Shown: positions 3,563 through 41,711 of the stretch, one piece after another | Layout: every line of letters begins with the position of its first letter | Position numbering within the stretch: the stretch's first letter is position 1 | Source of the DNA: a virus | Lineage: Duplodnaviria; Heunggongvirae; Uroviricota; Caudoviricetes | Virus record (IMG/VR): IMGVR_UViG_2534681763_000019 | DNA: 42,120 bases | Strand: one strand, 5' to 3' | Translations under genes and position numbers: made by a program | Notes under the pieces: generated by a model | The model's database searches: none | The model's input: only the letters and a program-made list of their open reading frames with translations | What the model was told of the DNA's origin: nothing

Positions 3563-6500
3563 GCGTCGTATCCCCCCTGATCGCTGTAGTTACTCCTGGC
3601 TTTTGCCTTCAGCCTGCGTTCACGTTCATCAAGCTGGCGTGCCACCTCCCGCGCAATATCCTGCGCACTTTGTCCTGGCTGCGTCTGAATGATGATCTGC
3701 GTCGGTGCCTCAATCCGTTGAACGAGCGGCACAGTGGCTGCGCGACTCACAATTGCTTCTCCACCTTTCGCGGGAAGTGCCAAAGGGTGCAACGGTGGAA
3801 GCTCTGCTGGCGCGGCAGCAACGCCCATCATTCCGGCAACAACGGCAGCCAGTGCAGCTGTATTTCTCCGGCTGGTCACATTTGCCGGGCCGTTAACAAT
3901 TTCCGGCCCGTTTTCACCGACGATGCCAAACTGCCCGCGCGGGATATACCCGCCGCTGTCATACAACCCCGCAAAGCCATATCCCCATGACGGAAAACCA
4001 CCCGATGTCATCATCACTTTACCGTCTGCATTCACCGTCGCAGGTTGCTGACGCGTCACGCTTTCCGGCAGTTTTGCCTTTGCGGCTTCTTTACTGACAA
4101 TGCCGAGTTTTTCCAGCAACCAGGATACGCCGGATTTGAGGGAGTCCAGCGGATGCATAACCATATTCAGCCCTTCCGCCAGCGCCTCCCCGAATCGTCG
4201 CCCCATTTCCGCTGCGCTCTGCAGTTCGGCAGAAGTCGACTTAACGGGTGTCAGCAGATCAGTAAACCAGCCCCACAACGCCTGCACTTTATCGCCAATC
4301 CACTGGAACACAGGCTTAAGTGGTTCGAACGCGGCACTGACGGGACCTGCCGCTGCTTTGAATCCCTCCACCACACCACCGAGAAACGCGGTGATGGGTT
4401 GCCAGTATTTCCAGACAACCAGCGCCACACCCGCCAGTGCAGTAACCACAAGACCTATCGGACTGAGCAGAGCACCTAACAGACCAGACACGGCATACAG
4501 GGCAACGCGCAGCATCGCCAGTGGACCAGATGCCAGTACTCGCAGCACCGTGCCTGCGGCGGCCAGTCCACCGCGCAGTACCGCCAGAGGATTCATAAAC
4601 ATCACAGCAACAGCACGTAAACCGGATAATCCAGACCGCAAAAGTGCAACCGGCGCACCTGCTACAGTTTTCAGGACATTTCCCGTCAGTGATGCCGTGC
4701 GGCGCAAAGACGACAACGGCGCAGTAAGTAAACCTGCGGCGTTGCCCGATGAAGCAAGCCCGCGTCGCAGCAGTGCCAGTGGTGCGCCAGCCAGCCAGGA
4801 CAACGCGCTGCTGGTTCGAGTTACTGCTGCCGTAACGGAAGATAACGTTTTGATACCCAACACAGAGAATCCCAGACGGATCACTGCCAGCGGCCCCAGC
4901 ACTGCAGCCAGCGCCACCGCTAAGGTGCCGAGGCCGACGGTAACCGCAGCCACAACAGCCGATGCTTTCATCAGTGTGCCTGTCAGTTCCGGGTTAGCTT
5001 CCACCCAGCGACGCAACGCCCCCGTGACGCTTTTCACCGTGTACAGAATATCCATCAGCGGCTGGCGCAGCGTTTCGCCCAGGCTGCTGAAGGTGTTCTG
5101 CGCTCCGGTTTTGGCCAGCAACCACTGCGCAGAAAGTGAATCCTTGTTAATGTCGGATTCTTTCTGCATGGAGCCGAGCGCATCATTGCCCGCTGTCAGT
5201 TTTAACTGACGCTGCAGTTCCGGCAGGTTGTTTGCCAGTTTCGCCGCGTCATCGCCAAACTCTTTACCAAACAACATAGTCATGGCAGACAGGCGCTTGT
5301 CCTGCGGCAGCGCGTTTACCTTCTCCAGCACGCGCTGGATGGTTCCCATCGCATCCTTCGTCATCTGCTTTTCAATCACTTCAGGATTGAGTTTCAGCAG
5401 ATTCATCCCTTCAAAGAAACTCTTGCTTTGCATGGTGGCAATGGACAATTCACGCACCATCGCGTTTGCTGCACTGGCTGCAACCTCTGGCGCAGCGCCC
5501 AGTGTCAGGAAGGTGGAACCCAGCGCCGCCGCTTTACGATAATCCAGACGGTCAGCCACACCGCCCAGACGTTGCATCACATCAATGATGTCTGCCCCTT
5601 TCGACATGGCGTTATCATCCAGATAGTTCAGCGCATCACCGAGCTGTTCAATATTGCGGGTGGGGATTTTGTAGAGCTGGGCGATTTTCCCCAGACTTTC
5701 TGACAGTTCATCCGCTGGCAGCTCAAAGGCTGTTGCCGCCTTTGCTGCCGTACTGGCGAAGGCCAGCAGGTCACGTTTCTGATCTTCCCAGCTGTCGTCA
5801 GGGTTTGCGACGTTCATGCGCGCACCACCTTCAACCAGTGCAGCGAAGTCCACCGCACCGTTTTCCATCGGCAACTGTTCGCTGGCAGCCTTGATGGCAT
5901 CCTGCATTTCATAAAAACGTGCAGTGCGGTTGCCATTATCGTCACGCAGACCATTGACCTGCTTTGCCACACCTTTCATGGCATCTTCCATGCTGGTATA
6001 GCTTTTTACTGCCGCCATCACTGGCGCACCCATTGCCAGCCCTGCAGCCGTGGTGGTGGCTCCGGCACCTGCAATACGATCACGCACCTCCAGCGAACGG
6101 GCATAACTGGCACGCGCTGCATTCATCCTGCGCTGAGCTTCCCCCAGTCGCTTCAGCCGCGCCTCCTGTTTCGAAAGTTCCTGGTTATAACGTGATGTTT
6201 CACGGGCTAAACGGGCAGTTGCTCCCGCATCGTCTTTCGCAGAAATTCCCGCCCGGTACAGTTCAGCACGCACAAGCGCCGTCTGCTGCTGCAGCTTTTT
6301 CTTGCGTTCTTCCAGGCGCTGAACAGCCAGCCGTTGACGGCCCAGAGCAACAACCTGACGTTGCGAAGGCGGCCCCATCGCTCCCAGTTCCTGACTGAGC
6401 AAATTTGCACGCTGGCGGGCATAGTTCAGACTGTCGCCTAATTTCTGATTTTCTGCCTGCAGCTTTCGGAAGCTGTCCAGACTGCTCCCGGCCTGATCAA

Positions 6501-13623: not shown

Positions 13624-14064
13624 TTGATGAAATCTTGGAAAAACCGAGGATTTAAAAAAAGGGTTCTTGAATATGTTTACTGTTTCTCCGCTGCTCCATT
13701 TTTAGCCATGTTCTACACGTTGTCAGAAAACCAGCTGACAATGTTTATAATTTTCTTCACTGTGAGTTTTTATCTCACTCTGATGGCATCCGTTTTTTTA
13801 ACAAAACGAGGATTTAACAAAGTATTCAAAGAATTCTTTAATTTATTATGGAACTATGAAACGGCCTTCGTTTTTTGCTATGGCCTTTATACTTATCTTT
13901 ATAGAATTGATGGGCAGAAAACTTTATCAAACCTCCTTACCATTATGTTTTCAGCTCACCCATGGACACTTATTTTCGGCATCGGACTCTTGGTTTTCAC
14001 AGTAATTTTCAGGTTTGCTCTGAGTGTTGCTGACTTGCTAGTTGAAGTTAAGTCAGATATATAA
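13624..14064 (+). CDS. AT-rich small membrane protein (moron between S and V)
   Basis: 146-aa ORF on the opposite strand to all flanking tail genes, strong RBS (taaggagg), markedly low GC, about four hydrophobic helices (FSAAPFLAMFYTL, FIIFFTVSFYLTLMASVFL, FVFCYGLYTYLY, WTLIFGIGLLVFTVIF). Confidence 0.65.
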   Translation: MMKSWKNRGFKKRVLEYVYCFSAAPFLAMFYTLSENQLTMFIIFFTVSFYLTLMASVFLTKRGFNKVFKEFFNLLWNYETAFVFCYGLYTYLYRIDGQKTLSNLLTIMFSAHPWTLIFGIGLLVFTVIFRFALSVADLLVEVKSDI

Positions 14065-22873: not shown

Positions 22874-23545
22874 TTAAAAACCAAGCTCATCTCTGATTCT
22901 TGGGAATTTTTTCATTACTCGAATATCAGTTAATAAATGCCAACGCCAAAAAACAGAAAATGGATATGATACATTACACATTGGCTTTAGCTTATTCTTG
23001 GCCTCTTGGATTTCTTGTTCTGTGCTTCGATCACTGACAAGTTTCATTCTCCAACCAGTAAAGTAAAACAATTCATCTTGTAACTTCTCTGAGAGATTTG
23101 CTCTTGTAATGCCCCTCAACCCCGTACTCGAAGAGTTAAAACACTTATCTAATAATTTGACTGTATTTAAAACCTTTCTACTTGGTCTTTTTCTTCTTGG
23201 GTATACTTGAACACCACTCGTTATAGCGTTCCCTGCGAGATGAACAATCTCACTGAAAACATCAACATCACTCTTTGTGCAATCAAGTAAGTTTTCAAAA
23301 GAATCACTTTTAATACTATTGCATCGACTGCAAGCTAAAAATAGATTGTTCCAATCATATTTGAGCTCATCAAGATCACGATGTGGAATAAAATGTTCTA
23401 TCTCTGGATCCATAAGATTACCTTGCTCACAGAGATAACATTTTCCATGAAATATTTCGTCTAAAGCATTTACAACTGTTTTATGGTTATATACTTTTCT
23501 CGACAAGCATTGAGGTGCAGGAATATTTCTAGTAACATTAAACAT
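22874..23545 (-). CDS. HNH endonuclease, Septu PtuB-like
   Basis: 223-aa ORF with HNH signature (HGKCYLCEQ...EIEHFIPH...WNNLFLACSRCNSIKSD); RBS aaagggaag; overlaps the upstream ATPase gene by 8 nt; very low GC. Confidence 0.7.
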   Translation of the reverse strand: MFNVTRNIPAPQCLSRKVYNHKTVVNALDEIFHGKCYLCEQGNLMDPEIEHFIPHRDLDELKYDWNNLFLACSRCNSIKSDSFENLLDCTKSDVDVFSEIVHLAGNAITSGVQVYPRRKRPSRKVLNTVKLLDKCFNSSSTGLRGITRANLSEKLQDELFYFTGWRMKLVSDRSTEQEIQEAKNKLKPMCNVSYPFSVFWRWHLLTDIRVMKKFPRIRDELGF

Positions 23546-24776
23546 CGTCTTCCCTTTCGCTATAATCTAAATATTTACTCTTAGCGATCATAAAAGCTGC
23601 TTTTGAACTTTTATCAAGAAAATCAATACTCTTCTGTAACGTTTTCATTATAGAATGAAATCTATCGTCGAAGACATTATTTTCTACTAAAGTCATTAAT
23701 TCTTTAACTAATGCATTTAGCTTATCCGAAGATACATCCTCACCCAACAATCCCTTTATAATTGCTGTGTAAGAATACAATGATAAATCACCCATCTGAT
23801 CCAATGTTGAGAGATTAAATATAATCGCATCAGATACTGATTGGATTACGAAAGGTGAATGCGTAGAAACAATAAATTGTATTTGCGGAAAAGATGATGA
23901 AAAAAAACTAAATACTTTCTTTTGCAATGTTACATGAAGATGAGCATCAATTTCATCAATAAGTACTATCCCTGTCATATCATGTTTTCTGATTTTATCA
24001 AGCTCTGCTTTTATCAATAAATCAGTATAAATAGAAAGAATTGATGAAAAACCAGATGACAACTTATCAAGTCCAAATGGTTCCTTATTATTTTGTAAAA
24101 GATAGATTTTCAACTTGTCGAGATCAAAATCCATTCTAATACTTTCATCTTCAAAAAGTTCTTTTAAGTCATCATTAATACTCTCAATAATATCAAAGGC
24201 TCTTTTATAGTCATCATCCTTGCCCACTCCCTTACTGACTAAAGCATAATTCCACAATGTAACTATGTATCTTTCAAAATACATACCAGCATCAATCTTA
24301 GAATTATTTCTCTGTGCGTTCCCATACTCAGTTAACAACAAATCGAGGCTGCTAATCTTACCATCATTTTTTATTTTCGCTTCTCGAATAGCAGGAAATA
24401 ATCTTATAATTGATTTTTTCTTTTTTGCAGCAACCCTGAAATCAACCACATCATTAAAAGTAATATCAAAGCTCTCAAATTCTTTTAATTTTTCTTTCAG
24501 TCTCTCAATTTCTTCGTTTAAATAGCTATAATTACCATCCCCTCTATTTGAATACTTTAAGTTTTCTTGACTGGAATTCAATTCCTTTTGTAGCTGCTCC
24601 TTAGTATAAGGATCATGTGAATTAATCGATTTTTCTATAAACTCATAAATATTCTCGATCAACCTAGTTTTACCAGAGCCATTATCTCCTGATATTATTA
24701 GATTCTTACCATCAAGATTTAATGTGTAAGGCTCATCGTTCCTTTTAAAGAAGATAGTTTCGATGAAATGTCGCAT
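23538..24776 (-). CDS. ABC-type (AAA_15/21-like) ATPase, Septu PtuA-like
   Basis: Walker A GDNGSGKT, signature-like LSSGFSS, Walker B IVLIDEIDAHLH, H-loop STHSP. Start placed at the second Met (GGAGG 4 nt upstream); the ORF track starts 15 nt earlier at 24791. Confidence 0.7.
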   Translation of the reverse strand: MRHFIETIFFKRNDEPYTLNLDGKNLIISGDNGSGKTRLIENIYEFIEKSINSHDPYTKEQLQKELNSSQENLKYSNRGDGNYSYLNEEIERLKEKLKEFESFDITFNDVVDFRVAAKKKKSIIRLFPAIREAKIKNDGKISSLDLLLTEYGNAQRNNSKIDAGMYFERYIVTLWNYALVSKGVGKDDDYKRAFDIIESINDDLKELFEDESIRMDFDLDKLKIYLLQNNKEPFGLDKLSSGFSSILSIYTDLLIKAELDKIRKHDMTGIVLIDEIDAHLHVTLQKKVFSFFSSSFPQIQFIVSTHSPFVIQSVSDAIIFNLSTLDQMGDLSLYSYTAIIKGLLGEDVSSDKLNALVKELMTLVENNVFDDRFHSIMKTLQKSIDFLDKSSKAAFMIAKSKYLDYSEREDDV

Positions 24777-24866
24777 TATTCCTCCCGTCATACTTAATAG
24801 CTTTTAGATAATATGACATTACATGTTAGATTTCATCCGTTTTGTGAACATATCCACTGCCGCGCG

Positions 24867-24885
24867 CTCGTATCCCCGCCACGCC
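24867..24885. other. Putative cos (cohesive end) core
   Basis: Plus strand CTCGTATCCCCGCCACGCC is the reverse complement of GGCGTGGCGGGGATACGAG, sharing the first 13 nt with the 186/P2 cohesive end as I recall it (GGCG[T/A]GGCGGGGAAAGCA.). Orientation relative to Q matches the P2 left end. Confidence 0.4.
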
Positions 24886-25228
24886 TGCCCGCTTTATGTA
24901 GTGGTTTTCATGCGCCTGCATGACATAAGCAAAAGCCCGCCACTCCTGGCAGGCCTCAGCAAAAACGATCCTCTAACGATCATGCGATCTCATTCGTCAT
25001 AGTCATGCACAGCCAAGGGAAGCGTAAATCCGTATCTGAATGACCGCTGAAAAGCTAATCATACGGGTTTACAAAGATGAAAGTCCGCTGTGAGCGAAAA
25101 GCGGATATTTCCATTGTTTTATCTTGATCTAGTAAAAACAATACCCTCTTTACAAACAAAAATAATGAGTTACTATTTGCAGCACCTTTTAACCCAAAGG
25201 TTTATAATTAAAAAGGAATGGCATACCG

Positions 25229-25882
25229 ATGAATAAATACAAACTTTTCGCACAGCTATCAAGATATTCATTTGAAGCGCAGATTGATGATTTCGAAAAA
25301 TATATCCTAGGAGCAGGCGGCCAAAACAGAGTTGACTTATCGGAATTAAAAAAAGCATATGAAGATGAAAAAAAGAATGCTCCTGACGATTATATTAATT
25401 ACTTAGAAGACTATTATTCAGAGCAATATGATTTCTTAGTTAACATACAACCAAATATTTTTAATAAATCTGCTTTGGTATCTTTATACTCATGCTTAGA
25501 GCACAACCTAAACGACTATTGCAATATATGTCAAAGGATTGTAAACACCAATATATCAGTAACCGATTTTAATGGTGATGGCATCCACAAAGCAAAAAGA
25601 TATTTAACAAAATTAATGGATATAAACTTTGGCCTGTCACAAGAGTGGCGATTCATGACAGAGTTTAACAAAGTAAGGAATTGCATAGTTCATGCTAATG
25701 GAGACATTAAAAAAATGAGCACAGCTGTAGCCTTAAAAGATATCATTGATAAAACACCTACTCTTTCATTAAACAATGAAAATAATATAATAATCTCCTT
25801 AAATTATTTAAAAGATACTATCACAAAAATTAGAAAACTCTTTCAATGGTTATATACACATCTGGATCAATCATCGAAATGA
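25229..25882 (+). CDS. Hypothetical protein with HEPN-like R-x4-H motif
   Basis: 217-aa ORF, very AT-rich, with C-terminal motif KVRNCIVHANGD (R-x4-H) typical of HEPN RNase domains; sits at the old/tin-equivalent position between cos and A. Confidence 0.55.
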   Translation: MNKYKLFAQLSRYSFEAQIDDFEKYILGAGGQNRVDLSELKKAYEDEKKNAPDDYINYLEDYYSEQYDFLVNIQPNIFNKSALVSLYSCLEHNLNDYCNICQRIVNTNISVTDFNGDGIHKAKRYLTKLMDINFGLSQEWRFMTEFNKVRNCIVHANGDIKKMSTAVALKDIIDKTPTLSLNNENNIIISLNYLKDTITKIRKLFQWLYTHLDQSSK

Positions 25883-26134
25883 ATACGATAACATCTCAGT
25901 TTGTTATTGGTCTATTTTTGAAAACAGCTATCGATGATATTAGTCTGTTCTTCGTCAATTAATATGCAATCCGTTCATGACACAGGGCTGCTGTTACAGC
26001 CCTGACAACCTTAGACTTCAATCGATTCAGAGATCTCTAACGCATCATCACCCGTTGAACTCACAGCGATAAGTAGACGCTGGCGGCAATAACACAGAAG
26101 TGTAGCGGGAATTTGAACCACATAATTTGGTTTG

Positions 26135-27001
26135 TTAGATGGCTTTGCTTCGATATTCAATTTCTAAAATCGCCTTTGTCATTGCCGCAATAGTTATAGC
26201 TTCTACCATAGTCAATTCAGGCTTGTTCAAGCTTCCGTGTCCAGCAGTAGGTAATTTGTTACGTAAATCATAAATATCTTTAACAGCATCAATAAGATTC
26301 TTAGGTAATTTTGACATTTTTTCGAACTGTTTAAAAAAACCACCCAATGACTCATTTGCCACATTCGGGTTTTGAGTGATTTCCTTAGCCATAGTTTCTA
26401 AAACATTAGAGGCTGCGTGCAGTGCACCTGCCGGATCATTATTATCCAAGCAATTATTCATTCTATCTATTTGCTGAACGATATTTGGGTGCAATCTCTT
26501 TAAGTAATCACTAGCCAATTCTTCATTGAAATTTTTGACACTTTCAAAAACATCGCAATCTAAATAAAATTTAGGATTGACTGACATCCATGTATATTTC
26601 CAATCATTTTCTAAATTATCTTTTTCCGCAATACGCCTGCCAGTGTCCTGATCTATCTCATCAACATATTTACACATATAATCGGCGTAGTAGTGTAAAT
26701 ATCTAAATGATATTTCTGGGCAAAAATTACTAACTGATGCAAGGCCGCCATATTCTTTTGTAGTAACTGTAGGGACTTCTTCATCACATAAAGATGAGAA
26801 AGTGGTTCTTTCCCAAAATTCGCCCAACTCTTTTTCTTTCCTAGTTGCCATACCAGCTATCATATTGATGCTTGAGAGCAAAACTACACTCTGATAGTAT
26901 CGAGGACATCTGTATGAACTAGCATATGGGCATATTGATGATGCTTTACGATTAATACGCTCTTTTTCCCACCAATTTTTATCAGGAATAATTCTTTGCA
27001 T
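26135..27001 (-). CDS. Hypothetical protein (accessory cargo)
   Basis: 288-aa ORF, AT-rich, convergent with the HEPN-like gene, Cys/Tyr-rich N-terminus and helical C-terminus with LRNKLPTAGHGS; no family assignable by eye. Confidence 0.5.
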   Translation of the reverse strand: MQRIIPDKNWWEKERINRKASSICPYASSYRCPRYYQSVVLLSSINMIAGMATRKEKELGEFWERTTFSSLCDEEVPTVTTKEYGGLASVSNFCPEISFRYLHYYADYMCKYVDEIDQDTGRRIAEKDNLENDWKYTWMSVNPKFYLDCDVFESVKNFNEELASDYLKRLHPNIVQQIDRMNNCLDNNDPAGALHAASNVLETMAKEITQNPNVANESLGGFFKQFEKMSKLPKNLIDAVKDIYDLRNKLPTAGHGSLNKPELTMVEAITIAAMTKAILEIEYRSKAI

Positions 27002-27489
27002 AATTTAGCTACTATCTCACGAGTGAATGAATGTTTAGCCTTCTGCACAGTTTATCAGTTCCGGCATGCCTACTGCTACCCCACTGATTCAACTTCAAGT
27101 TATGAGTTAAAGCGATTCGGTTTCGCTAGATGACACACTAGTGTTAATTTATGGATAAAAATTTATCACTTAAAATTAACTAATGCCTGTTGCGACCAAA
27201 AGTGTGCTGGAATATTATTTTCGTCTGGCCTATTATCAAGCTAATTATCCAAATTAGAGTTACTCTCATTCATCAGCAACAAATAAATACACCTGTTCAC
27301 TTTCTCAAAGTGTTCCTGTTTTATTTTTAAAGCAAACAACGCCGCCTATTCGTCCGAATGTACAACAAACATCAGGTTCTGACACAAAGTGGACGATCAC
27401 TTATCAAAATGACCGCCCACCTTACACCTCATTTCACTCGTTGCCCAAACTCCCCCCAACAGGATAAATCCTCTTGGGGGCAACGTTTC

Positions 27490-27723
27490 TTAATGCAGCC
27501 AGCTGTCGTCTTCCCACACCTTCTGCATAATTTTCAGCACTTGTTTTCTTTCTTCGTCCAGTTGCAGTACGGTCAGTTCCACACCGTTAGAGCTACCTTT
27601 GCGGATACGAATTACCGTTTTGGGATACAGGGGGCGCAGATTGCGGTAAAGCTCGGATTCAAGGGCATCCAGGGTAGACTGGCTAATCTTCTGCTCTTTA
27701 TCGATCATTATTTCAATGCGCAT
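27490..27723 (-). CDS. DinI-like protein (Tum-region)
   Basis: Translation from the internal Met (MRIEIMIDKEQ...IMQKVWEDDSWL) follows the DinI pattern (MRIEV... ...ETWESADDWF); the ORF track's longer N-terminal extension was not used. Confidence 0.65.
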   Translation of the reverse strand: MRIEIMIDKEQKISQSTLDALESELYRNLRPLYPKTVIRIRKGSSNGVELTVLQLDEERKQVLKIMQKVWEDDSWLH

Positions 27724-28075: not shown

Positions 28076-30514
28076 TTAATACAGGTTCCGCCACTTATCA
28101 TCTTCCTGTAAACGCTGATTCCGATAGAAGATACGCAGGCCAGCCCCTGACGGAATACTGCCTCCGCGAAGGAGTAAATCGACCTCTTTCTCGCTGCCAT
28201 CAAATCCTCTGGACTTCAGTTCATAGACGAGCTGCTGTCGCTGATGGTCTGTAATTCGCTGTTTGTAGTCTTTGCGCCGTTTCGGTTTCACCTGGCGTAA
28301 CCTTGCAGCCAGTTCCCGACGCTCTTTTTTGCTCATACTGTGCAGATAATCGTGCAACTCCTTGTCATCCTGGCGGGTAATGTCAGTTCTGGTGTCCCCA
28401 TCAGCTGATTTATCTTTCTCCTGTTGGTTCAAATTTTCAGCAAGGGGACAGTTATTGCCACGAGTCCGAGTCCGAGTCCGAGTCCGAGTCCAAGGGGCGC
28501 AAGCGCCCTTGTCGGCTGCCGCCTCCTGAACGTCAACGGCCTTACGAACCATTTTCCACTTCACTGCATGAGTGCAGATCTTGCCCTCTGCAATGGGTGA
28601 CCAGATGCCATAAATACGAATACCGTGATCGCCATAGGCGGTCGGCTCTTCGTTGATTTCATAAGCAGTTCTGATGAGGTGATATTTGCGGGGAACCAGT
28701 ACGCCGCCCTGCTTCATGATGTAGGTGGCAAAACAACCAGCATCAGCAGCAGCCAGGATTGCATCAAGGCGCGGGTTATCCAGTACCGGCGCACCTGCTT
28801 TTTTGTCCCCCTGCTGCCTTGCCGCCTGACCAGCCAGCAATCGCAGTTCACGGTAAGCCTGACGCCCCGGAATGCCAAAGAAGCGGAATTGCTGAACACG
28901 ATGCAGAGACGCCCAAGCATTAACGTATTCAGCGTTATCACGCAGGGATTTACCCGTTTCCTTGCTGATCTCGCCAGCCAGACCACGCCCGTCAATGTTC
29001 TTACTGATGTATTTCGCGATGTAGCTTGTTGGCGTACCTTTGCGCGGGTTTATCAGCTCGGACTTAAAGCGTGGTCCCGTGTTATTACCCAGCTCCTCGC
29101 GGTCTTCACGAATGGCAAACTTACGCAACAAAGCAGTAATGGCGCGGCGATCTTTTTTGCGCATAAAACACAACAGGTGCCAGTGAACTGTACCGTCGTG
29201 ATGCGGCTCAGCCACCCGCACGCCATACCAGCGCAACCCGGCTTTGTGCATCGCCTTACGAAATGCAGCAAACATACCGACCAGATAATCACTGCTTTGT
29301 CTTACCGTCGCATTTGTCCAGGTTGGGTTGGGCCTGCCGTTATTTAGCGTGGAATGGAAACGTGACGGACAGGTGATGGTGTAGAAAACGGCGCAGTCAC
29401 CGCGCATTTCCGCGATAAGCTCCAGACCTTTAACACAGGCCATCATCTCATTGCGGCGATGCGCAGGGTTGCTGCTGCTGGCGTTTACCACATCCTCCAT
29501 GTCCAGCGTGTCGCCGTCTTCGTTCACCAGTTCATGAGAACGGAAAAACTCCAGCGACTTACGGCGCTGCTCACGTTTATGCATCACGGCTTCATAGCTG
29601 ACATAAGGAGATGCTTTTTTGCTAACCAGGCAGACAGCGCGCAACTGCTCTTCCCGCCATTCGCAACGCATCTTCCATAATTTCCGATACCACCAGTCGG
29701 CGCACAACATACGCGCCAGCGAACCCGGAATGAGTTCATAGGGCACGGGTTTACGGCGGTTTCTTTTCCGACGGAGTTGCTCAAACGCAGGCGGGATAAC
29801 ATCCAGACGCAGGGTTTCCGCTGCCACCTTTTCCCACGTCTTGCGGATTTCTTCTGGCTTAACGTCATCGGTGGCATACAAATCACCACAAGCGGCATCA
29901 AGGCACATGCTCATATGCGCAGCAACAAGGGTAGACAGACGCTTCACCTGATCCTGACTCATTTCAGGCAGGATCAGCAGGCCGTCCAGCCCTTCATGGC
30001 TTGCCATAAAGCGAAAAGAAGTGGATAGCTGACAGTCGCGTACATGCTCCAGTCGTTCCAGACATGGCTTAATCGTCTCACGCAAATAGCGGGAATAAGC
30101 CTTTGGCCTGCCCAGGCTGCTGAAGTATTCAATACGTTGCATCAGCGGCTTGCTGATATGGGAAGGCTGGGCATTGACGTCCGCCAGAATGACCATATCT
30201 GGATTAAAACGCTGCTGCTCATGCGCCAGCTTTGCCCGGCTAATGAGTTTATCCTGCTCCATTTCGCGTTGGACAGGATCACGGGATTCATTAAAGAAAT
30301 AACGCTCCCAGACCTGATCACTCAGTGCCTCGCGGCGCAGTTGTTCCAGCTCGTTATCGACAGCGTACAGAGTGATCAGGTTTGAAAGCGCAGAAACCGG
30401 CGCAACTTCCGCCGGGTCCAGATAAGGGTTAATGGCCTTTTTCGGGCTGTTCCATGAGAATGCTGCGGCGACCTCGTTAAAGCCGCTGCAGTTGTTCATA
30501 TCAGCATGGCTCAT
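28076..30514 (-). CDS. A: Replication initiation protein A (rolling-circle nickase)
   Basis: 812-aa ORF with HUH-like motif (TVHWHLLCF); largest early gene, coupled to the upstream dam gene by 4-nt overlap. Confidence 0.85.
28461..28491. repeat. Hexanucleotide tandem repeat (CGAGTC)x5 inside gene A
   Basis: cgagtccgagtccgagtccgagtccgagtcc; encodes (TR)5 in the A protein and contains five tandem GAGTC pentamers. Confidence 0.9.
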
Positions 30515-36444: not shown

Positions 36445-37716
36445 ATGGGACCCACTAAGAAGGGTCCAAAAACCGAGGGTCCCAAAATGGCAAAAATCGC
36501 TAAGAAGCTCACTGACACTGAAATCAAAAGCACCAAGCCAGCCGATAAAGAAATCAACTTGTTTGACGGTGATGGTCTGATTCTACGAATCGCTCCTTTG
36601 GCGAAAGGAGGCAAGAAAAATTGGTATTTCAGGTATGCAGTACCAGTGAGCAAGAAAAGAACCAAAATGAGCCTTGGGACATATCCTCACCTTACCCTTG
36701 CAAGAGCCAGAGCCTTACGTGATGAATATCTCTCCTTTCTGGCAAATGGTGTTGATCCCCAAATCCATAACAACGATAAGGCGAAGGCATTAAAGAGTGC
36801 TACTGAGCACACTCTCCAAGCCGTAGCGCGGAAATGGTTAGATGAGAAGGTAAAGACATCAGGTATCTCACAAGACCATGCAGCAGACATCTGGCGCAGC
36901 TTAGAGAGAAATGTCTTTCCCGGTCTGGGTAATGTCCCTATCAATGAGATCCGACCTAAGCTCTTAAAACAACACCTTGATCCTATTGAGCAACGAGGCG
37001 TATTGGAAACTCTACGCCGTATCATTTCACGTCTGAATGAAATCTTCCGGTGGGCAGCTACTGAAGAACTTATTGAGTTCAACCCGGCTGACAACCTTGG
37101 TCAAAGATTCAGTAAACCAAAAAAGCAAAATATGCCTGCCCTTCCCCCAAGCGAATTGCCAAGGTTTATGGAATCTTTGACGAATGCGTCAATCCGGTTG
37201 GAAACACGTATGCTAATTGAATGGCAATTGTTGACATGGGTTCGTCCGGGTGAAGCCGTTCGCGCAAGGTGGTCTGATATTGATACAACCAACAGCATTT
37301 GGAACATTCCTGCTGATTTCATGAAAATGAAAAAGCTTCACAAAGTTCCTTTGAGTAAAGAAGCTTTGCGCATCCTTGAATTAATGAAATCAATAAGTGG
37401 GCATAGAGAATGGGTTTTCCCCAGCATAAAAGCGCCTCTTAATCATATGCATGAACAAACAGCCAACGCAGCTATCATCCGAATGGGGTTCGGAGGCGAG
37501 CTTGTAGCTCACGGTATGCGTTCTATTGCACGAACAGCGGCAGAGGAGGCTGGTAAATTCAGAGCTGAAGTTCTTGAGGCAGCGCTTGCCCACTCGAAAA
37601 AAGATGAAATTATCGCAGCATACAATCGTGCAGAATATCTGATAGAGCGACAGAGTTTGATGCAATGGTGGAGTGATTACGTTCAAGCTCAAAGATCAAA
37701 TGCTCTGGTAGCCTAA
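36445..37716 (+). CDS. P4/CP4-57-like tyrosine integrase
   Basis: N-terminus (MAKIAKKLTDTEIKSTKP...LFDGDGL...WYFRY) follows the P4-family integrase pattern (probable start at the internal Met, 36487); C-terminus has recombinase motifs (ELVAHGMRS...ALAHS...AYNRAEY); sits beside the ssrA att remnant like intA of CP4-57. Confidence 0.85.
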   Translation: MGPTKKGPKTEGPKMAKIAKKLTDTEIKSTKPADKEINLFDGDGLILRIAPLAKGGKKNWYFRYAVPVSKKRTKMSLGTYPHLTLARARALRDEYLSFLANGVDPQIHNNDKAKALKSATEHTLQAVARKWLDEKVKTSGISQDHAADIWRSLERNVFPGLGNVPINEIRPKLLKQHLDPIEQRGVLETLRRIISRLNEIFRWAATEELIEFNPADNLGQRFSKPKKQNMPALPPSELPRFMESLTNASIRLETRMLIEWQLLTWVRPGEAVRARWSDIDTTNSIWNIPADFMKMKKLHKVPLSKEALRILELMKSISGHREWVFPSIKAPLNHMHEQTANAAIIRMGFGGELVAHGMRSIARTAAEEAGKFRAEVLEAALAHSKKDEIIAAYNRAEYLIERQSLMQWWSDYVQAQRSNALVA

Positions 37717-37754
37717 GTATCAGAATAGCTAATATAATCCTGAAGGTAAAGAAA

Positions 37755-38171
37755 ATGGAAACCCTATTCAAAGTTTTTGAAAAATTTAGTTCCAGACCAC
37801 TTTTTTTTATTTTTTTCGGACTCTCACTTTGTGAATTTTTTCAGAAACAATCTGTTCTGATGAATCCATCAGCAGATAACATCGCGAAATTATTCGCAGC
37901 CATGATATTAGTTGTTTTTTTTACTTGGGGATTTGAATGGCTAATCTTCAAGTTCAATGTAAACCTTGAACCTCATGATCAAGGCGATATTGGACCAACA
38001 ATTGGAACGGCTACTTTAGCTGTATACTTAGTTTATGCCTTTCACTTTCTCAGTGAAAATCCTGAAGCATTAAATTTAAAGTTATTAACTAACTCTGGCT
38101 TTATATACAGCACAACTCTATTATTATTCTCATTAGAATGCATGAAGCTTAGAAGACTTAAACAAAAATAA
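37755..38171 (+). CDS. Small hydrophobic protein
   Basis: 138-aa AT-rich ORF with 3-4 hydrophobic helices, directly downstream of the integrase. Confidence 0.5.
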   Translation: METLFKVFEKFSSRPLFFIFFGLSLCEFFQKQSVLMNPSADNIAKLFAAMILVVFFTWGFEWLIFKFNVNLEPHDQGDIGPTIGTATLAVYLVYAFHFLSENPEALNLKLLTNSGFIYSTTLLLFSLECMKLRRLKQK

Positions 38172-38242
38172 ACAACATCATTGTGATGATAAATATAAAA
38201 TAGGCATGGCGAAAAAAAATCACCACGCCTAAAATATAATAA

Positions 38243-40009
38243 TTATGGTAGCATCATTGATACATAATCCACACCAATCCTTGAGCTATACTGAGACGCT
38301 ATAGCCTGATATCTTTCTGCATAACCAGTTCTCAGTTGAGATTTAAGTTTGAGTCGGACAGGAACATTTTGCACGTTGCCATCCATATTACTTAAAAACA
38401 CGGCAGAAATAATATTTTTTTCTTCGCCATCAACTGTTGTTCCATGATTCAACACCACCATATAATCAACAACAGGAAGCGTTTTATCCCCTTCGAAAAT
38501 AGAGAGATATTTTCTTTGATTTTTATGCATTACATATATATATTTCGAATGTTCAGCAAATGGCAATGCTTTACTCTGACTGGCGTTAAAAAGCTCCAGA
38601 ACTTTAATGAGCCTGTGCGGACTTAATCTTACATGGTGAGGGTCGTTACCCTGAGTAGGAACCAAATCACATGCCGCAGATACACATAAATACCATTTGT
38701 TCGACTCTGTATCAAAGAAAATAGTGCCAGTAGAAATATGACCATCTTCAAAATTCTTTGAAGACAAATTCATATTTAAAGCATGATACATTTCGTGATA
38801 AGTATCATTATTTGATGGCAGATCCATTTTTGAAGAGCAATATTGGAGCAATGCAGCAACTCCGCTGTTAGCGTATTCATTTGAATAGCTATCAAAAACA
38901 CTTTTGATAAATTCATCCAGCGTATTATTATTTTTAAGTCTTTGATAAAGCTCTTCTGATAAATTACCAAATACAAAGTCAATATTTCTACATCTAATAT
39001 CAGGCGAGTCTGATTTTAATATCTCATTTAACCACGCAGCTTGACCGTAATGATCGTTAGCCAAATGATTTACAAAAGATAAAGCCTCAGCTTCGATTGC
39101 ATTCTGAATTTCAGATTTTATTAACTGATAATAAGATGGTTTCCATTCAATGAGAGAATCATTGAGAGTTTGCCAAATCCTATCTCCATCGTTTTCATGA
39201 TCATCTTGAACCTTATGAAATAGGGAGACAAAGATATTACCACATTGAATCCATTTTACTCCGCTTTCATCACCCCGAATGACATTGCCAGATGTGTTGC
39301 TAGAAATAATTGCATTTCTAGACACAGCATATTCTGCAATCATTTTTGCAATGAAGTTTTTATCCTTTTGATCCTCCAACACAGCATCATCATGTATTAA
39401 TCTTTTAATTCTTCTACAAGGCTTACTGTCTTTAATATAGGCTATTGTTTCATCTCTTGTGAGAGCTTTATTACCATTATCATTTAAGTTCGGTAATACA
39501 ACGTCTTCCCAATAACTTTGGACATCTTCATTATCGTAGTCAATGATCAAGCTGTTGATATCCAGAGCACCTTTGAGAGTCGATGATATCTGCATCCAAA
39601 CCGTTTCTAAATTCTCTCTAGTATATATTACAATCATATTTAAATGATCGGAGTCTTTCAAATCTTGTAATAGTTTAAGTGTTTTATCAGGTGCATTATT
39701 ATCAAGATGATAATCTACAATAATAAGATCTGATTTTCTAATCCGATCCACATCGAAATTAACAGAACCATTGTCAACATCACAAATCATATTTTTAGAT
39801 TGTAAAAAGCTCTCAAGAGTAGCGGCTCGTTTAGATGAGTCAATTTTGTTGTAGTCTAAATCAACTTCGTTATTCAACGCCCTGATTGATTCAGAATACG
39901 TCAGAAAATCGTCATCAATCATGACAACGGAACGAATTGCATTTTCGCAGAAAGTTTTCTGGACAAGAGAATTATAATTTGCCACTGTCATATTAGAACT
40001 CCACTCCAT
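38243..40009 (-). CDS. Receiver (REC)-domain protein with large uncharacterised C-terminal domain
   Basis: 588-aa ORF. N-terminus has receiver-domain hallmarks: acidic pocket VVMIDDD, phospho-Asp-like DLIIVDYHL, conserved Thr MIVIYT. No HTH evident in the ~450-aa C-terminal region. Start overlaps the upstream kinase-like gene by 17 nt. Confidence 0.7.
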   Translation of the reverse strand: MEWSSNMTVANYNSLVQKTFCENAIRSVVMIDDDFLTYSESIRALNNEVDLDYNKIDSSKRAATLESFLQSKNMICDVDNGSVNFDVDRIRKSDLIIVDYHLDNNAPDKTLKLLQDLKDSDHLNMIVIYTRENLETVWMQISSTLKGALDINSLIIDYDNEDVQSYWEDVVLPNLNDNGNKALTRDETIAYIKDSKPCRRIKRLIHDDAVLEDQKDKNFIAKMIAEYAVSRNAIISSNTSGNVIRGDESGVKWIQCGNIFVSLFHKVQDDHENDGDRIWQTLNDSLIEWKPSYYQLIKSEIQNAIEAEALSFVNHLANDHYGQAAWLNEILKSDSPDIRCRNIDFVFGNLSEELYQRLKNNNTLDEFIKSVFDSYSNEYANSGVAALLQYCSSKMDLPSNNDTYHEMYHALNMNLSSKNFEDGHISTGTIFFDTESNKWYLCVSAACDLVPTQGNDPHHVRLSPHRLIKVLELFNASQSKALPFAEHSKYIYVMHKNQRKYLSIFEGDKTLPVVDYMVVLNHGTTVDGEEKNIISAVFLSNMDGNVQNVPVRLKLKSQLRTGYAERYQAIASQYSSRIGVDYVSMMLP

Positions 40010-41711
40010 TGAACTGGATCACAAAATTAGCGCCATCTTTTATTAAATAGTTATCGCCTTCATCAGGTTCTGAATACCATATTTTATGATGTGCAACAGC
40101 AAGGTTTTCTCGACATAGATACAGACCTACCCCATGTCCATTTGCTCTTTTGCTATAAAATAGTTCAAATAGTCGCGGGATATCATCGGTATCAATTGCC
40201 GGACCAGAATTTGCTATGATAACCAAAGAATTCACAAAACCAATCTTTATGAGCCTATTATTTGACAGACTGACCCAATACATTGCATTGTTGATAATAT
40301 TAGTAAAAACAGGATAGATCCTTGATGGTATATCTGTTATTGCGATTTGCTTAAACTCTTCACTAAATTCAATAGTTATTCGTTGCCGTTCGAAACGCTC
40401 CCCAAAGAACTTCAGGACATAATCCATGATATTTTTTCCAGTTATTCTCTGCCTGGATTGATAACCTGATATTTTCAAAGGTGATAAGAAACGTATTTGT
40501 TGAGTAAGCGATCTGTGAGCATTTAACGCCAATGAAAAACCAGGGTGTTCTTTTACAGAAGTAGGAAGAGAGTTTAGTCCTCTGGTTACCATAGAATCCA
40601 TTTCTTCAAGTTCATGAGATATTATCTCAACACTAATACCTAACTGTGCAAGCGCGTTTAAACTTTTAGCTTTTTCTTCAAAATATGAGCGTTCTTCTTC
40701 AGATAATGAGAATGCTGAATCTAAGTTTATACCTTCAAATAATCTATCGAGACCTTTTATTATTGATTGATATTTGAAAGTTAGGGTATCAACTGACTCA
40801 ACATATAAACTATCGAGCAAATTAAACACATTTTCAATTTGTGAATCATTATCTATTGAATCAACAACTGATATAGTTTTAGCATAATAATCACTTCGAT
40901 CAACCTTTATTTCATCGGCCCATTTTTTTAAAAGAGAATGTATCTTCTCCTCTATCGTGTTATTAAACTTAGTTAGTTTAGAATTAATAATACCTTGATT
41001 TTTTTCAAGGTGATTTTTCGCTGACAATGAAGGCTCAAGTTTATTTAATTCAGAATCAAGTTTATTAATTGCTAACTTCATTTGTAGAATATACGCAGAG
41101 AACTCATTAAATTTATCTCTGTAGTCTCTATATTTCTCTTCATACATTCCAAGTTTTGGAGGTTTGATAGGCGTTTTAATTTCACTGCGCAACGCATCTA
41201 AGTTTGTAAGATCACTGTCTATAATTTTAAGATAGTTTAAATCTAACGAACCATCAGTTTTATCAAGCTTAGTTTTCAGCCTTTTAACAGCCTCCAAGGA
41301 AGCATCAAGAACTGGTGTCTGATTCTTCAAAGCTTCTGAAAAACTTTTTTGTGTTGATTTTCGAGCTTGTTGTTGAGCAGATTTTCTTAACTCTTTTTCA
41401 CGCTTAACTTGTTCTAAAAGCTCTTTACGGTCATCAGAACGTGAACCAAAAAATCTATCAGCAAGTTCAGTTAACAAATTAGATATAATAGTTTTCAGTT
41501 CTCTTGCAGCCTGGTTTCTTATGAATCCCTCTCTCCCCGACTTATCTTTCAGCTCTTTATTACTGGATTGAGTAATTCCAATATAACCAAAAATCCTTCT
41601 ATTAGACCAATAATATCGCCCTGCATTCCATGAACGTCTTTCTTCTATCTGGAAGAAATCATTATCTACTCGACCATAAGGTAATACTCTCAAGCTATCC
41701 CTAAAAATCAT
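39993..41711 (-). CDS. Soluble histidine-kinase-like protein (DHp + HATPase_c), 5' end possibly truncated by IS3
   Basis: 572-aa ORF. H-box-like IISHELEEM, N-box FTNIINNAMYW, G1-like IIANSGPAID, G2-like ANGHGVGLY; long coiled-coil-rich region upstream; no TM segments. The same frame stays open upstream of the first Met to the IS3 end at 41832. Confidence 0.7.
   Translation of the reverse strand: MIFRDSLRVLPYGRVDNDFFQIEERRSWNAGRYYWSNRRIFGYIGITQSSNKELKDKSGREGFIRNQAARELKTIISNLLTELADRFFGSRSDDRKELLEQVKREKELRKSAQQQARKSTQKSFSEALKNQTPVLDASLEAVKRLKTKLDKTDGSLDLNYLKIIDSDLTNLDALRSEIKTPIKPPKLGMYEEKYRDYRDKFNEFSAYILQMKLAINKLDSELNKLEPSLSAKNHLEKNQGIINSKLTKFNNTIEEKIHSLLKKWADEIKVDRSDYYAKTISVVDSIDNDSQIENVFNLLDSLYVESVDTLTFKYQSIIKGLDRLFEGINLDSAFSLSEEERSYFEEKAKSLNALAQLGISVEIISHELEEMDSMVTRGLNSLPTSVKEHPGFSLALNAHRSLTQQIRFLSPLKISGYQSRQRITGKNIMDYVLKFFGERFERQRITIEFSEEFKQIAITDIPSRIYPVFTNIINNAMYWVSLSNNRLIKIGFVNSLVIIANSGPAIDTDDIPRLFELFYSKRANGHGVGLYLCRENLAVAHHKIWYSEPDEGDNYLIKDGANFVIQFNGVEF

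What the first reader, a model, noticed from the sequence alone, without database searches (positions are those of the whole stretch)
25229..25882. HEPN-motif protein in the old/tin-equivalent slot
A 217-aa AT-rich ORF carries a C-terminal R-x4-H motif (VRNCIVH), the hallmark of HEPN ribonuclease domains found in abortive-infection and toxin proteins. No adjacent antitoxin-like partner is evident; the neighbouring 288-aa gene is convergent. It could act alone or with that neighbour.
Basis: partly seen in the sequence, partly recalled or inferred. Interest (0 to 1): 0.5.

Follow-up and report, generated by a model that had tools for sequence, protein, structure and literature searches.

The report
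Stand-alone HEPN gene in P2 prophage hotspot
An unannotated 217-residue gene in the variable "old/tin" region of an E. coli P2-like prophage is a real, conserved, single-domain HEPN (predicted RNase) protein that travels as a self-contained cassette between phages and other mobile elements, so it is a good but untested candidate for a one-gene anti-phage suicide nuclease.

Summary
ORF 25229-25882 (+, 217 aa, 30% GC) exists, is under purifying selection, and carries R150-N-x3-H155.

The motif alone is weak evidence: 12% of shuffles of the protein contain an Rx4H. Its conservation is not weak. R150, H155 and W140 are invariant, and E91 and N151 are present in 52 of 53 relatives at 22-36% identity.

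The gene lies on the old/tin side of a probable cos element in an ETEC P2-like prophage, beside a complete Septu system.

Close homologues sit alone, each with its own promoter-like site, in other prophage accessory-gene slots and in an ICE. I found no protein or RNA antitoxin.

Best reading: a solo HEPN abortive-infection RNase that works like HepS, ApeA or DARNA. It is a new member of a known kind. Function is untested.

The parts
25229..25882 (+). ORF217: stand-alone, expanded single-HEPN-domain protein (217 aa; WP_001404037)
25676..25693 (+). Codons for R150-N151-C-I-V-H155, the predicted catalytic Rx4H motif
   Evidence: R150 and H155 invariant, N151 in 52 of 53 relatives. The motif lies at the C-terminal end of helix 138-156 in the model, the position described for HEPN helix 3 (PMC3710099).
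25499..25501 (+). Codon for E91, the conserved acidic residue in the long helix 53-105 (HEPN helix 2 equivalent)
   Evidence: E in 52 of 53 relatives. A conserved acidic residue in helix 2 near the motif is a described HEPN feature.
25149..25176 (+). Promoter-like site TTTACA-16-TACTAT about 50 nt upstream of the ATG
   Evidence: Consensus scan. A -10-like TAcAAT aligns at the same place upstream of homologues in seven unrelated contexts. Function is inferred.
25213..25218 (+). Shine-Dalgarno-like AAGGAA, 10 nt before the ATG
   Evidence: Read from the sequence. AAGGA is conserved in most homologous loci.
25983..26004 (.). GC-rich hairpin CAGGGCTG-ctgtta-CAGCCCTG between the two convergent genes; likely a bidirectional terminator
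   Evidence: Read from the sequence. It belongs to the stretch that travels with ORF288 in Rac prophages. Other ORF217 copies carry their own hairpin plus T-run.
25899..25967 (.). ~70-nt spacer shared by the pair, by a solo-ORF217 locus (Enterobacter) and by solo-ORF288 loci (Rac prophages); the recombination junction between the two cassettes
   Evidence: Three-way DNA alignment. The match limits seen start at query position 1100, which is window 25899.
26135..27001 (-). ORF288 (context): separate AbiJ-like protein with a Cys-rich N-terminal domain and a C-terminal Abi_C-type HEPN carrying R247-x7-H255-G256
24854..25103 (.). Conserved P2-family non-coding element (context), a probable cos region, dividing the hotspot into a Q-side slot and an A-side (old/tin) slot
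   Evidence: Found in about 1,650 E. coli genomes and 78 phage records at 80-94% identity. It sits between different cargo in L051 and abuts DinI/A in a Yersinia phage. The minus strand at 24867-24885 matches P2 cosR at 14 of 19 positions.
22874..24791 (-). Septu system (context): PtuB HNH 22874-23545 and PtuA ATPase 23538-24791
   Evidence: PADLOC PtuA 7e-122 and PtuB 2e-82. Replaced by a KAP NTPase in the O25b:H4 prophage, which keeps ORF217 and ORF288.

Best explanation
ORF217 is a stand-alone, single-domain HEPN protein. It belongs to a large, uncharacterised clade on the edge of Pfam HEPN_RiboL-PSP and of the RT-associated HEPN model in PADLOC. It is carried as a self-contained accessory cassette (promoter, gene, terminator) on the old/tin side of cos in a P2-like prophage.

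Proposed mechanism:
1. The lysogen expresses the gene from its own promoter.
2. The protein sits as an inactive homo-oligomer.
3. A cue from an infecting phage releases the inhibition, and two R150/N151/H155 motifs, with E91 nearby, form a composite RNase site.
4. RNA cleavage, most likely of tRNA anticodon loops, arrests the cell and aborts the infection.

Shown here: the gene is real; the motif and the acidic residue are conserved; the fold is HEPN-like; the cassette is autonomous; no partner or antitoxin is detectable.

Inferred only: expression, oligomerisation, RNase activity, the RNA target, the trigger and the anti-phage phenotype.

My sub-probabilities:
- HEPN fold with an intact active site: 0.9
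- no obligatory partner: 0.75
- anti-phage role: 0.6
- tRNA as the target: 0.3
For: Motif and fold:
- R150, H155 and W140 are invariant, and E91 and N151 are in 52 of 53 relatives at 22-66% identity.
- PADLOC RTasHEPN matches the window protein at E 5e-5 and 47 of 53 relatives, best 7e-10.
- Pfam PF18735 matches 10 of 53 relatives, best 3e-7. UniRef names some 97-98% identical copies "RiboL-PSP-HEPN domain-containing".
- The AF2 model has pLDDT 87.5 and pTM 0.81, with Rx4H at the end of helix 138-156 followed by a loop, and an insert between the long helix and that helix. This is the canonical HEPN layout.

Autonomy:
- Homologues at 63-69% identity lie alone on the opposite strand between tail-fibre assembly and sheath genes (Morganella) and between gpS and gpV.
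- Others lie in lambdoid prophages and in an ICE.
- Each copy has an aligned -10-like element and its own terminator.
- dN/dS is 0.07-0.28 across these contexts.

No antitoxin:
- The upstream 48-aa ORF is not conserved.
- There is no Rfam match, so no match to an abiF-motif model, which I believe Rfam includes.
- There are no tandem repeats and no conserved leader structure.

Defence context:
- The gene sits in the P2 gpA-gpQ hotspot catalogued by Rousset 2022, where this exact locus is listed with the protein as "hypothetical".
- Septu lies next door.
- Distant relatives sit beside type IIG R-M, GmrSD, PDC-M30, PDC-M41, AbiJ, HNH and Tn3 genes.

Precedent for solo HEPN abortive-infection tRNases held inactive until triggered: HepS (PMC13043305), ApeA and DARNA.
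Against: - No experiment bears on this protein or on any member of its clade.
- The window protein gets no Pfam hit at E <= 1. Its PADLOC hit covers only 43 residues around the motif.
- In E. coli, ORF217 is always found next to ORF288 (9 of 9 complete genomes). Relatives in Bacillaceae also sit next to AbiJ-type genes. A partnership is therefore not excluded.
- A different "putative HEPN" from a P2 hotspot sits in Rousset 2022's table of additional tested systems (S2B) and is not among the systems the text reports as defensive. Location alone does not guarantee a measurable phenotype.
Confidence: 0.58

Rival explanations
1. ORF217 and the convergent OR288 neighbour (ORF288) form one two-gene HEPN-HEPN system. 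Two different HEPN proteins might hetero-oligomerise, or one might guard or back up the other, so neither is fully functional alone.
For: - ORF217 is next to ORF288 in all 9 E. coli complete genomes that have it, and in all the viral and metagenomic copies at >= 97% identity, while the gene on the other side changes from Septu to a KAP NTPase.
- Distant ORF217 relatives in Bacillus toyonensis and Priestia megaterium (34% identical to each other) both sit beside AbiJ/Abi_C proteins (48% identical to each other), in different gene orders.
- A Salmonella ORF288 homologue sits 122 bp downstream of a DUF4145 gene, which is another HEPN family.
- A ~70-nt spacer is shared by the pair and by both solo arrangements.
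- The Rac-type solo ORF288 copies are split into two ORFs.
- HEPN-HEPN operons have a precedent: Bxe_C0808 with AbiU2 in Table 1 of PMC3710099.
Against: - Intact ORF217 homologues under purifying selection sit alone between phage structural genes in at least three other slots.
- ORF288 occurs without ORF217 in 15 of the 24 E. coli genomes that have it. Its intact homologues in Pectobacterium, Shewanella and Pseudomonas have unrelated neighbours.
- The two genes are convergent, each with its own promoter side.
- The E. coli pairs are 99% identical, so they amount to a single acquisition.
- Only 3 of about 20 distinct contexts of the wider family have an Abi_C neighbour.
Confidence: 0.15
2. ORF217 is the toxin of an addiction or toxin-antitoxin module. 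Its antitoxin would be an unrecognised small protein or a non-coding RNA, as in AbiF (type III-like). Its main role would be stabilising the prophage rather than blocking other phages.
For: [quoted passage not shown]
- About 140 nt upstream of the ATG travels with the gene in all contexts.
Against: - No Rfam match at E <= 1 on either strand of 24600-27600.
- No tandem repeats.
- RNAalifold predicts no conserved pair in the leader across seven contexts.
- The only upstream ORF (48 aa, GTG start) is not conserved.
- No MNT-type or other small gene lies next to the solo copies.
- The solo HEPN defences HepS and ApeA show that no antitoxin is needed.
Confidence: 0.1
3. ORF217 has a HEPN fold but is not an anti-phage nuclease. 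It might be an RNA- or nucleotide-binding regulator, or an accessory gene serving another prophage or host function such as counter-defence, lysogenic conversion or virulence.
For: - P2 hotspots also hold non-defence cargo, such as partition systems and cytolethal distending toxin.
- Some HEPN families are non-catalytic, for example MtlR and sacsin.
- The window strain is an ETEC isolate.
- No PADLOC defence-system model claims the protein as a system of its own.
Against: - The complete catalytic signature (R, N and H, plus the helix-2 acidic residue) is kept at 52-53 of 53 relatives. That is not expected for a non-catalytic HEPN.
- Neighbours across phyla are dominated by defence and mobile-element genes.
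- The gene sits in accessory-gene slots that hold exclusion genes in P2 itself: old and tin, and Z/fun (my recollection of the P2 literature).
Confidence: 0.15
4. The motif is a chance match in a spurious or decaying AT-rich ORF.
For: An Rx4H occurs in 12% of shuffles of this protein. The window protein itself gets no Pfam hit.
Against: dN/dS is 0.07-0.28. There are 3,969 related 50%-identity clusters. R and H are invariant. The structure model is confident.
Confidence: 0.01

Closest known systems
HepS (Gifsy-1 prophage solo HEPN abortive-infection tRNase; Sargen et al., Nature 2026, PMC13043305)
   Same: Both are prophage-encoded single HEPN-domain proteins of almost the same size (218 vs 217 aa). 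Both sit in an accessory-gene slot with no partner or antitoxin gene and carry one Rx4H motif per protomer. HepS is the best model for how ORF217 would work: an inactive oligomer, activated by a phage protein, that cleaves tRNA anticodon loops.
Pfam PF18735 HEPN_RiboL-PSP (Ribo L-PSP-HEPN of Anantharaman et al. 2013)
   Same: This is the nearest curated sequence family. 10 of 53 relatives match it (best 3e-7), and UniRef labels near-identical copies with this name. [quoted passage not shown] One distant relative sits beside a DUF262/GmrSD_N gene, which fits the described "operon with ParB".
   Different: The window protein gets no hit at E <= 1. The two relatives examined in detail score 16-19 bits against a cut-off of 28.4. 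No fusion to endoRNase L-PSP was seen. The family has no experimentally characterised member that I could find.
PADLOC RTasHEPN (PDLC03820), probably the HEPN partner of UG22-type defence-associated reverse transcriptases (Mestre et al. 2022, PMC9226505; my link, not documented)
   Same: This is the best-matching defence-database model: E 5e-5 for the window protein, and 47 of 53 relatives match it.
   Different: No reverse transcriptase is near ORF217 or near any homologue examined. The match covers only 43 residues around the motif.
ApeA and DARNA (PD-T7-3): single-protein HEPN defences that cleave tRNA anticodon loops
   Same: One gene, a HEPN effector, abortive infection, and auto-inhibited oligomers activated by an infection cue. 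HEPN_Apea genes occur in the sister P4 hotspot.
   Different: Both are larger and carry extra sensor domains or pockets (DARNA is 456 aa). ORF217 has no PADLOC or Pfam match to either and is essentially a bare HEPN domain with inserts.
Lactococcal HEPN Abi proteins AbiD/AbiF (Abi_2) and AbiJ (Abi_C)
   Same: All are single-gene HEPN abortive-infection proteins on mobile elements. The neighbour ORF288 has the AbiJ architecture: a variable N-terminal domain followed by a C-terminal Abi_C HEPN.
   Different: ORF217 gets no Abi_2 or Abi_C hit. No match to an abiF RNA motif was found. ORF288's Abi_C score is below the Pfam cut-off, and its Cys-rich N-terminal domain matches none of the Pfam families searched.
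P2 old and tin (the exclusion genes in this slot of phage P2)
   Same: They occupy the same genomic position, between cos and orf91/gpA. They are AT-rich lysogenic-conversion genes that exclude other phages.
   Different: The proteins are unrelated: Old is an ATPase-TOPRIM nuclease and Tin is not a HEPN protein. There is no DNA similarity between this region and the right end of P2.

Membership tests
HEPN superfamily | Conserved Rx4-6H motif, commonly with a polar residue (N, H or D) after the R | tested here: met
   R150 and H155 invariant, N151 in 52 of 53 relatives at 22-66% identity.
HEPN superfamily | [quoted passage not shown] | tested here: met
HEPN superfamily | Conserved acidic residue in helix 2, close to the motif | tested here: met
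   E91 is present in 52 of 53 relatives and lies in the long helix 53-105.
HEPN superfamily | Metal-independent endoribonuclease activity from a dimeric composite site | not testable with these tools
   This needs purified protein and R150A/H155A controls. No multimer prediction was available.
Pfam PF18735 HEPN_RiboL-PSP | Score at or above the gathering cut-off (28.4 bits) | tested here: not met
   The window protein gets no hit at E <= 1. 10 of 53 relatives match at E <= 0.01, best 3e-7. The two relatives examined score 16.5 and 18.7 bits. The protein therefore belongs to a peripheral sister clade, linked to the family only transitively.
Pfam PF18735 HEPN_RiboL-PSP | Fusion to endoRNase L-PSP, or an operon with ParB/DUF262 | tested here: not met
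   No L-PSP domain in the window protein or in 10 longer relatives. One distant relative (L015/L034) has a DUF262/GmrSD_N-HNH neighbour. There is none in the window.
DRT / UG22-type RT + HEPN system (PADLOC RTasHEPN) | HEPN gene next to a UG/Abi reverse transcriptase | tested here: not met
   The profile matches at E 5e-5. No RT gene is present in the hotspot or next to any homologue examined.
AbiF/AbiD (Abi_2) HEPN with RNA antitoxin | Abi_2 domain plus an upstream abiF-motif ncRNA | tested here: not met
   No Abi_2 hit. No Rfam match at E <= 1. No repeats. No conserved leader structure.
HEPN-MNT (HepT/MntA) type VII toxin-antitoxin | Adjacent minimal nucleotidyltransferase antitoxin gene | tested here: not met
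   There is no such ORF next to ORF217 here or in the solo contexts. The structural resemblance to HepT is limited to the HEPN core.
HepS-type solo HEPN defence | Homology to HepS (STM14_3211) | tested here: not met
Septu | ORF217 as a third component of PtuA/PtuB | tested here: not met
   PtuA and PtuB are complete without it. ORF217 and ORF288 occur with a KAP NTPase in place of Septu, and ORF217 occurs without either. A conserved cos-like element separates them.
AbiJ / Pfam Abi_C (for the neighbour ORF288) | C-terminal Abi_C HEPN domain with a conserved R...H-G motif behind a variable N-terminal domain | tested here: inconclusive

The most novel reading that the evidence does not exclude
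The recurrent side-by-side placement of two different solo HEPN proteins reflects a real two-HEPN immune module. The observed cases are an ORF217-type gene with an AbiJ type in E. coli and, in rearranged order, in Bacillus and Priestia, and a DUF4145 gene with an ORF288 homologue in Salmonella. In such a module, distinct HEPN nucleases would hetero-oligomerise, or one would act as a tripwire for phage inhibition of the other. That would make the 25229-27001 cassette one system rather than two.
Probability: 0.15. Interest if true: 0.6.

Novelty: new member of a known kind. Interest (0 to 1): 0.4.

Why it matters
Solo HEPN proteins have recently proved to be complete immune systems, combining sensor and tRNase effector in about 200-450 residues (HepS, ApeA, DARNA). 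ORF217 represents a large clade with no studied member: about 4,000 clusters at 50% identity, spread from Enterobacteriaceae to Bacillaceae, cyanobacteria and Planctomycetes.

RefSeq calls the protein hypothetical. So does the published catalogue of P2 hotspots. PADLOC has no system model for it.

It is small and autonomous, and it moves between at least four prophage accessory-gene slots and an ICE. That makes it an easy cloning target. If it is active, it would add a defence family, and it would offer a minimal HEPN scaffold for asking how a bare HEPN domain senses infection.

The finding also shows that this one hotspot stacks three candidate systems (Septu and two HEPN genes) around the probable cos site.

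Tried and rejected
- Pfam, NCBIfam and PHROGs searches with ORF217 itself gave nothing meaningful.
- phmmer and a family-profile search against PDB sequences returned only coiled-coil noise.
- Foldseek against the PDB gave no hit below E 0.36. The afdb50 library was unavailable.
- RNA antitoxin or type III TA: no Rfam match, no tandem repeats and no consensus leader structure. Rejected.
- The upstream 48-aa GTG ORF (25090-25236) as an antitoxin: not conserved in other contexts. Rejected.
- ORF217 as part of Septu: rejected.
- Identity with the "putative HEPN" that Rousset 2022 tested (pFR103): it is a different protein.
- Extra domains in longer relatives: none were found.
- A profile of 53 diverse relatives was too divergent for the search for related loci. 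The closer alignment was used instead.
- Literature searches for RiboL-PSP, RTasHEPN and the WP accessions found no functional work.
- The neighbours of ORF288 homologues in Pectobacterium, Shewanella, Pseudomonas and Rac prophages were tested against the ORF217 and Abi_C HMMs. None matched.
- P2 cosR was not found at <= 3 mismatches. A 14-of-19 match sits inside the conserved element, but matches at that stringency also occur by chance.

Full report
**Observation.** The ORF at 25229-25882 (+) is present as described: 217 aa, ATG start, TGA stop. RefSeq annotates it as a hypothetical protein (WP_001404037) in five ETEC genomes that match the window at 100%. Its GC content is 30%, against 54% for the structural half of the prophage. 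VRNCIVH is residues 149-155, and it is the only Rx4-6H in the protein. The motif alone is not informative: 12% of shuffles of the protein contain an Rx4H and 32% an Rx4-6H. The gene is under purifying selection. Pairwise dN/dS is 0.07-0.28 between copies from seven genomic contexts, and third codon positions vary most.

**Setting.** The window is an E. coli P2-like prophage. Capsid, terminase and portal genes end at 22836. DinI-like, a small ORF and gpA follow from 27490. Dam, CII, the CI-type repressor and the integrase lie further on. Between portal and DinI lies the variable region that Rousset et al. 2022 defined as the P2 defence hotspot. Their Table S5A lists this exact arrangement with ORF217 as "hypothetical".

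The hotspot holds a complete Septu system, PtuB at 22874-23545 and PtuA at 23538-24791 (PADLOC 2e-82 and 7e-122). After that comes a non-coding element at about 24854-25103, then ORF217, then the convergent ORF288 at 26135-27001. The non-coding element is conserved at 80-95% in about 1,650 E. coli genomes and in 78 P2-like phage records. It sits between unrelated cargo in another genome: a retron on one side and a SIR2 gene plus an ATP-binding-protein gene on the other. It directly abuts DinI/gpA in a Yersinia phage. Its minus strand carries GGCGTGGCGGGGATACGAG, a 14-of-19 match to P2 cosR. I read it as the probable cos region.

On that reading ORF217 and ORF288 occupy the position that old and tin occupy in P2, between cos and orf91/A. 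Septu occupies a second sub-slot between cos and Q. The cos assignment is an inference, because matches at that stringency also occur by chance.

**What the protein is.** A word-indexed search found only close enterobacterial homologues and one Bacillus protein at 24% identity. R150, N151 and H155 are invariant in all of them. A profile search of 1.84 billion cluster representatives found 3,969 related clusters at E <= 1e-3, of which 1,713 are at E <= 1e-10. Nearly all are 200-250 aa and match over their full length.

In 53 diverse members (22-66% identity), W140, R150 and H155 are invariant. E91 and N151 are present in 52 of 53, and G158 in 50 of 53. PADLOC's RT-associated HEPN model matches the window protein (E 5e-5, residues 122-164) and 47 of the 53. 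Pfam HEPN_RiboL-PSP matches 10 of the 53 (best 3e-7), but it does not match the window protein, and the two relatives examined fall below its cut-off. UniRef names some near-identical copies "RiboL-PSP-HEPN domain-containing". So the protein belongs to a sister clade on the edge of that computationally defined family. Anantharaman et al. 2013 place that family near AbiD and AbiF.

**Structure.** The AlphaFold model is confident (pLDDT 87.5, pTM 0.81). It is all-alpha apart from one beta-hairpin. Its helices are 3-30, 38-48, 53-105, 119-130, 138-156, 166-175 and 191-215. The Rx4H sits at the end of helix 138-156 and runs into the following loop. E91 sits in the preceding long helix, and there is an insert between those two helices. 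That is the layout described for HEPN helix 3, helix 2 and the helix 2-3 insert.

**Autonomy.** Homologues at 63-81% identity occur in quite different places:
- alone on the opposite strand between the tail-fibre assembly gene and the sheath gene of a Morganella P2-like prophage, which is the Z/fun position of P2 (the P2 map is from my own knowledge);
- alone between gpS and gpV of another P2-like phage, the orf30 position;
- near the tail-tip and DinI genes of Salmonella and Enterobacter lambdoid prophages;
- inside a conjugative element in Pantoea.

The DNA alignment shows that about 140 nt of upstream sequence moves with the gene, including an aligned -10-like TAcAAT roughly 50 nt before the ATG. 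Several copies end in their own hairpin plus T-run. This is the anatomy of a self-contained accessory cassette.

The upstream 48-aa ORF is not conserved. There is no Rfam match in 24600-27600, so no match to an abiF-motif model, which I believe Rfam includes. There is no repeat array and no conserved leader structure. I therefore see no protein or RNA antitoxin.

Neighbours of distant relatives are type IIG R-M, GmrSD-like, PDC-M30A/B, PDC-M41B, AbiJ, HNH, TPR and Tn3 genes. That is defence-island and mobile-element company with no universal partner.

Its N-terminal ~170 residues have invariant C24, C32, C94, C149 and H171. In some Pseudomonas proteins the same N-terminal domain is joined to a different C-terminus. 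This is the AbiJ architecture of a variable N-terminal domain plus a HEPN domain.

ORF288 also occurs without ORF217. That is the case in 15 of the 24 E. coli genomes that carry it: on plasmids, in one divergent chromosomal copy, and in Rac-type prophages, where it is split into two ORFs. Outside E. coli it occurs with unrelated neighbours in Pectobacterium, Shewanella and Pseudomonas.

**A loose end in favour of a link.**
- ORF217 is next to ORF288 in every E. coli copy (9 of 9 genomes), although these are 99% identical and so amount to one acquisition.
- Two Bacillaceae relatives of ORF217 (34% identical to each other) both sit beside AbiJ proteins (48% identical), in different orders.
- A Salmonella ORF288 homologue sits just downstream of a DUF4145 gene, another HEPN family.
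- A ~70-nt spacer (25899-25967) is shared by the pair, by the Enterobacter solo-ORF217 locus and by the Rac solo-ORF288 locus.

This is more adjacency than I would expect from defence-island clustering alone. It rests on three or four events, so I keep it as the main rival at about 0.15.

**Mechanism.** I commit to a solo HEPN abortive-infection RNase. The protein would be made in the lysogen from its own promoter, kept inactive as a homo-oligomer, and activated by a phage cue. It would cleave RNA through a composite site built from two R150/N151/H155 motifs, with tRNA anticodon loops the most likely target.

Every step after "intact HEPN signature, autonomous cassette, no antitoxin" is inference by analogy. 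The analogues are HepS (a 218-aa Gifsy-1 solo HEPN, an inactive tetramer activated by tail-tip protein J, and an anticodon nuclease), ApeA and DARNA.

ORF217 is not a member of any of those families by sequence or by close structural match. The most variable surface stretches among close homologues are residues 25-39, 160-174 and 196-217, and they are candidate sensing regions.

**Verdict.** This is a new, untested member of a known kind, the single-gene HEPN defence or toxin. It is not a new kind of system. Interest is moderate. The clade is large, unnamed and experimentally accessible, and the two-HEPN adjacency deserves a proper statistical and genetic test.

Noticed in passing
window 24854-25103 (cos-like 19-mer on the minus strand at 24867-24885): A non-coding element is conserved at 80-95% in about 1,650 E. 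coli genomes and 78 P2-like phage records. It splits the hotspot into two independently swapping cargo slots. It contains GGCGTGGCGGGGATACGAG, a 14-of-19 match to P2 cosR, and two copies of CCCGCCAC(G/T)CCTG. It is probably the cos region.
   Followed up: partly
window 26135-27001 (-): ORF288 is an AbiJ-like HEPN protein. Its ~170-aa N-terminal domain has invariant C24, C32, C94, C149 and H171, which suggests possible metal binding, and matches no Pfam family. The same N-terminal domain is fused to a different C-terminus in Pseudomonas proteins P0066-P0070.
   Followed up: partly
window 25899-25967; L019 6680-6750; L002 about 6000-6070: A ~70-nt spacer between the convergent genes is shared by the pair, by an Enterobacter locus with ORF217 only and by Rac prophages with ORF288 only. 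The solo copies and the pair therefore share a recombination history.
   Followed up: partly
L002 6239-7105 (Rac-type prophage, 8 E. coli genomes): The ORF288 homologue (97% nt identity) is split into 114-aa and 150-aa ORFs. It lies convergent to a zeta-toxin-family gene and a 210-aa unknown gene.
   Followed up: no
L021 5136-6750 and L017 5068-7810 (Bacillus toyonensis, Priestia megaterium): Distant ORF217 relatives sit beside AbiJ/Abi_C proteins near integrases, in two different gene orders. The Priestia locus also has an HNH-like 213-aa gene and a 119-aa ORF.
   Followed up: partly
L053 1706-4867 (Salmonella prophage): An ORF288 homologue (87% identity) lies 122 bp downstream of a DUF4145 (HEPN-family) 232-aa gene and a GT4-conflict glycosyltransferase, next to tail-fibre genes.
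   Followed up: no
window 22874-24791 (-): A complete Septu system (PtuA and PtuB with overlapping genes) lies on the portal side of the cos-like element. In the O25b:H4 prophage it is replaced by a 551-aa KAP P-loop NTPase.
   Followed up: yes
window 13624-14064 (+): A 146-aa opposite-strand ORF lies between gpV and gpS, the orf30-type accessory slot. It has no Pfam or PADLOC hit. An ORF217 homologue occupies this same slot in another P2-like phage, L023.
   Followed up: no
window 36445-41711: Just past the P2 integrase lies a second, P4-type integrase (36445-37716). Beyond it is a 33-38% GC pair: Response_reg_2 (38243-40009, -) and HEF_HK + HATPase_c (39993-41711, -). This may be a separate island carrying a predicted conflict system, with no PADLOC hit.
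   Followed up: no
window 25229-25882 vs L003 6369-7022: All five nucleotide differences between the ETEC and O25b:H4 alleles of ORF217 are nonsynonymous (N2S, F15L, S39A, R141Q, D171N). This is not significant on its own.
   Followed up: partly
window about 28400-28440 (gpA, minus strand): The replication protein gpA contains a (Thr-Arg)5 repeat, [13 protein letters not shown], encoded by a short hexanucleotide repeat.
   Followed up: no
window 1184-1666 (+): A 160-aa ORF at the tail end of the prophage has a partial match to PADLOC candidate PDC-S48 (E 1.7e-7, C-terminal 70 residues only).
   Followed up: no
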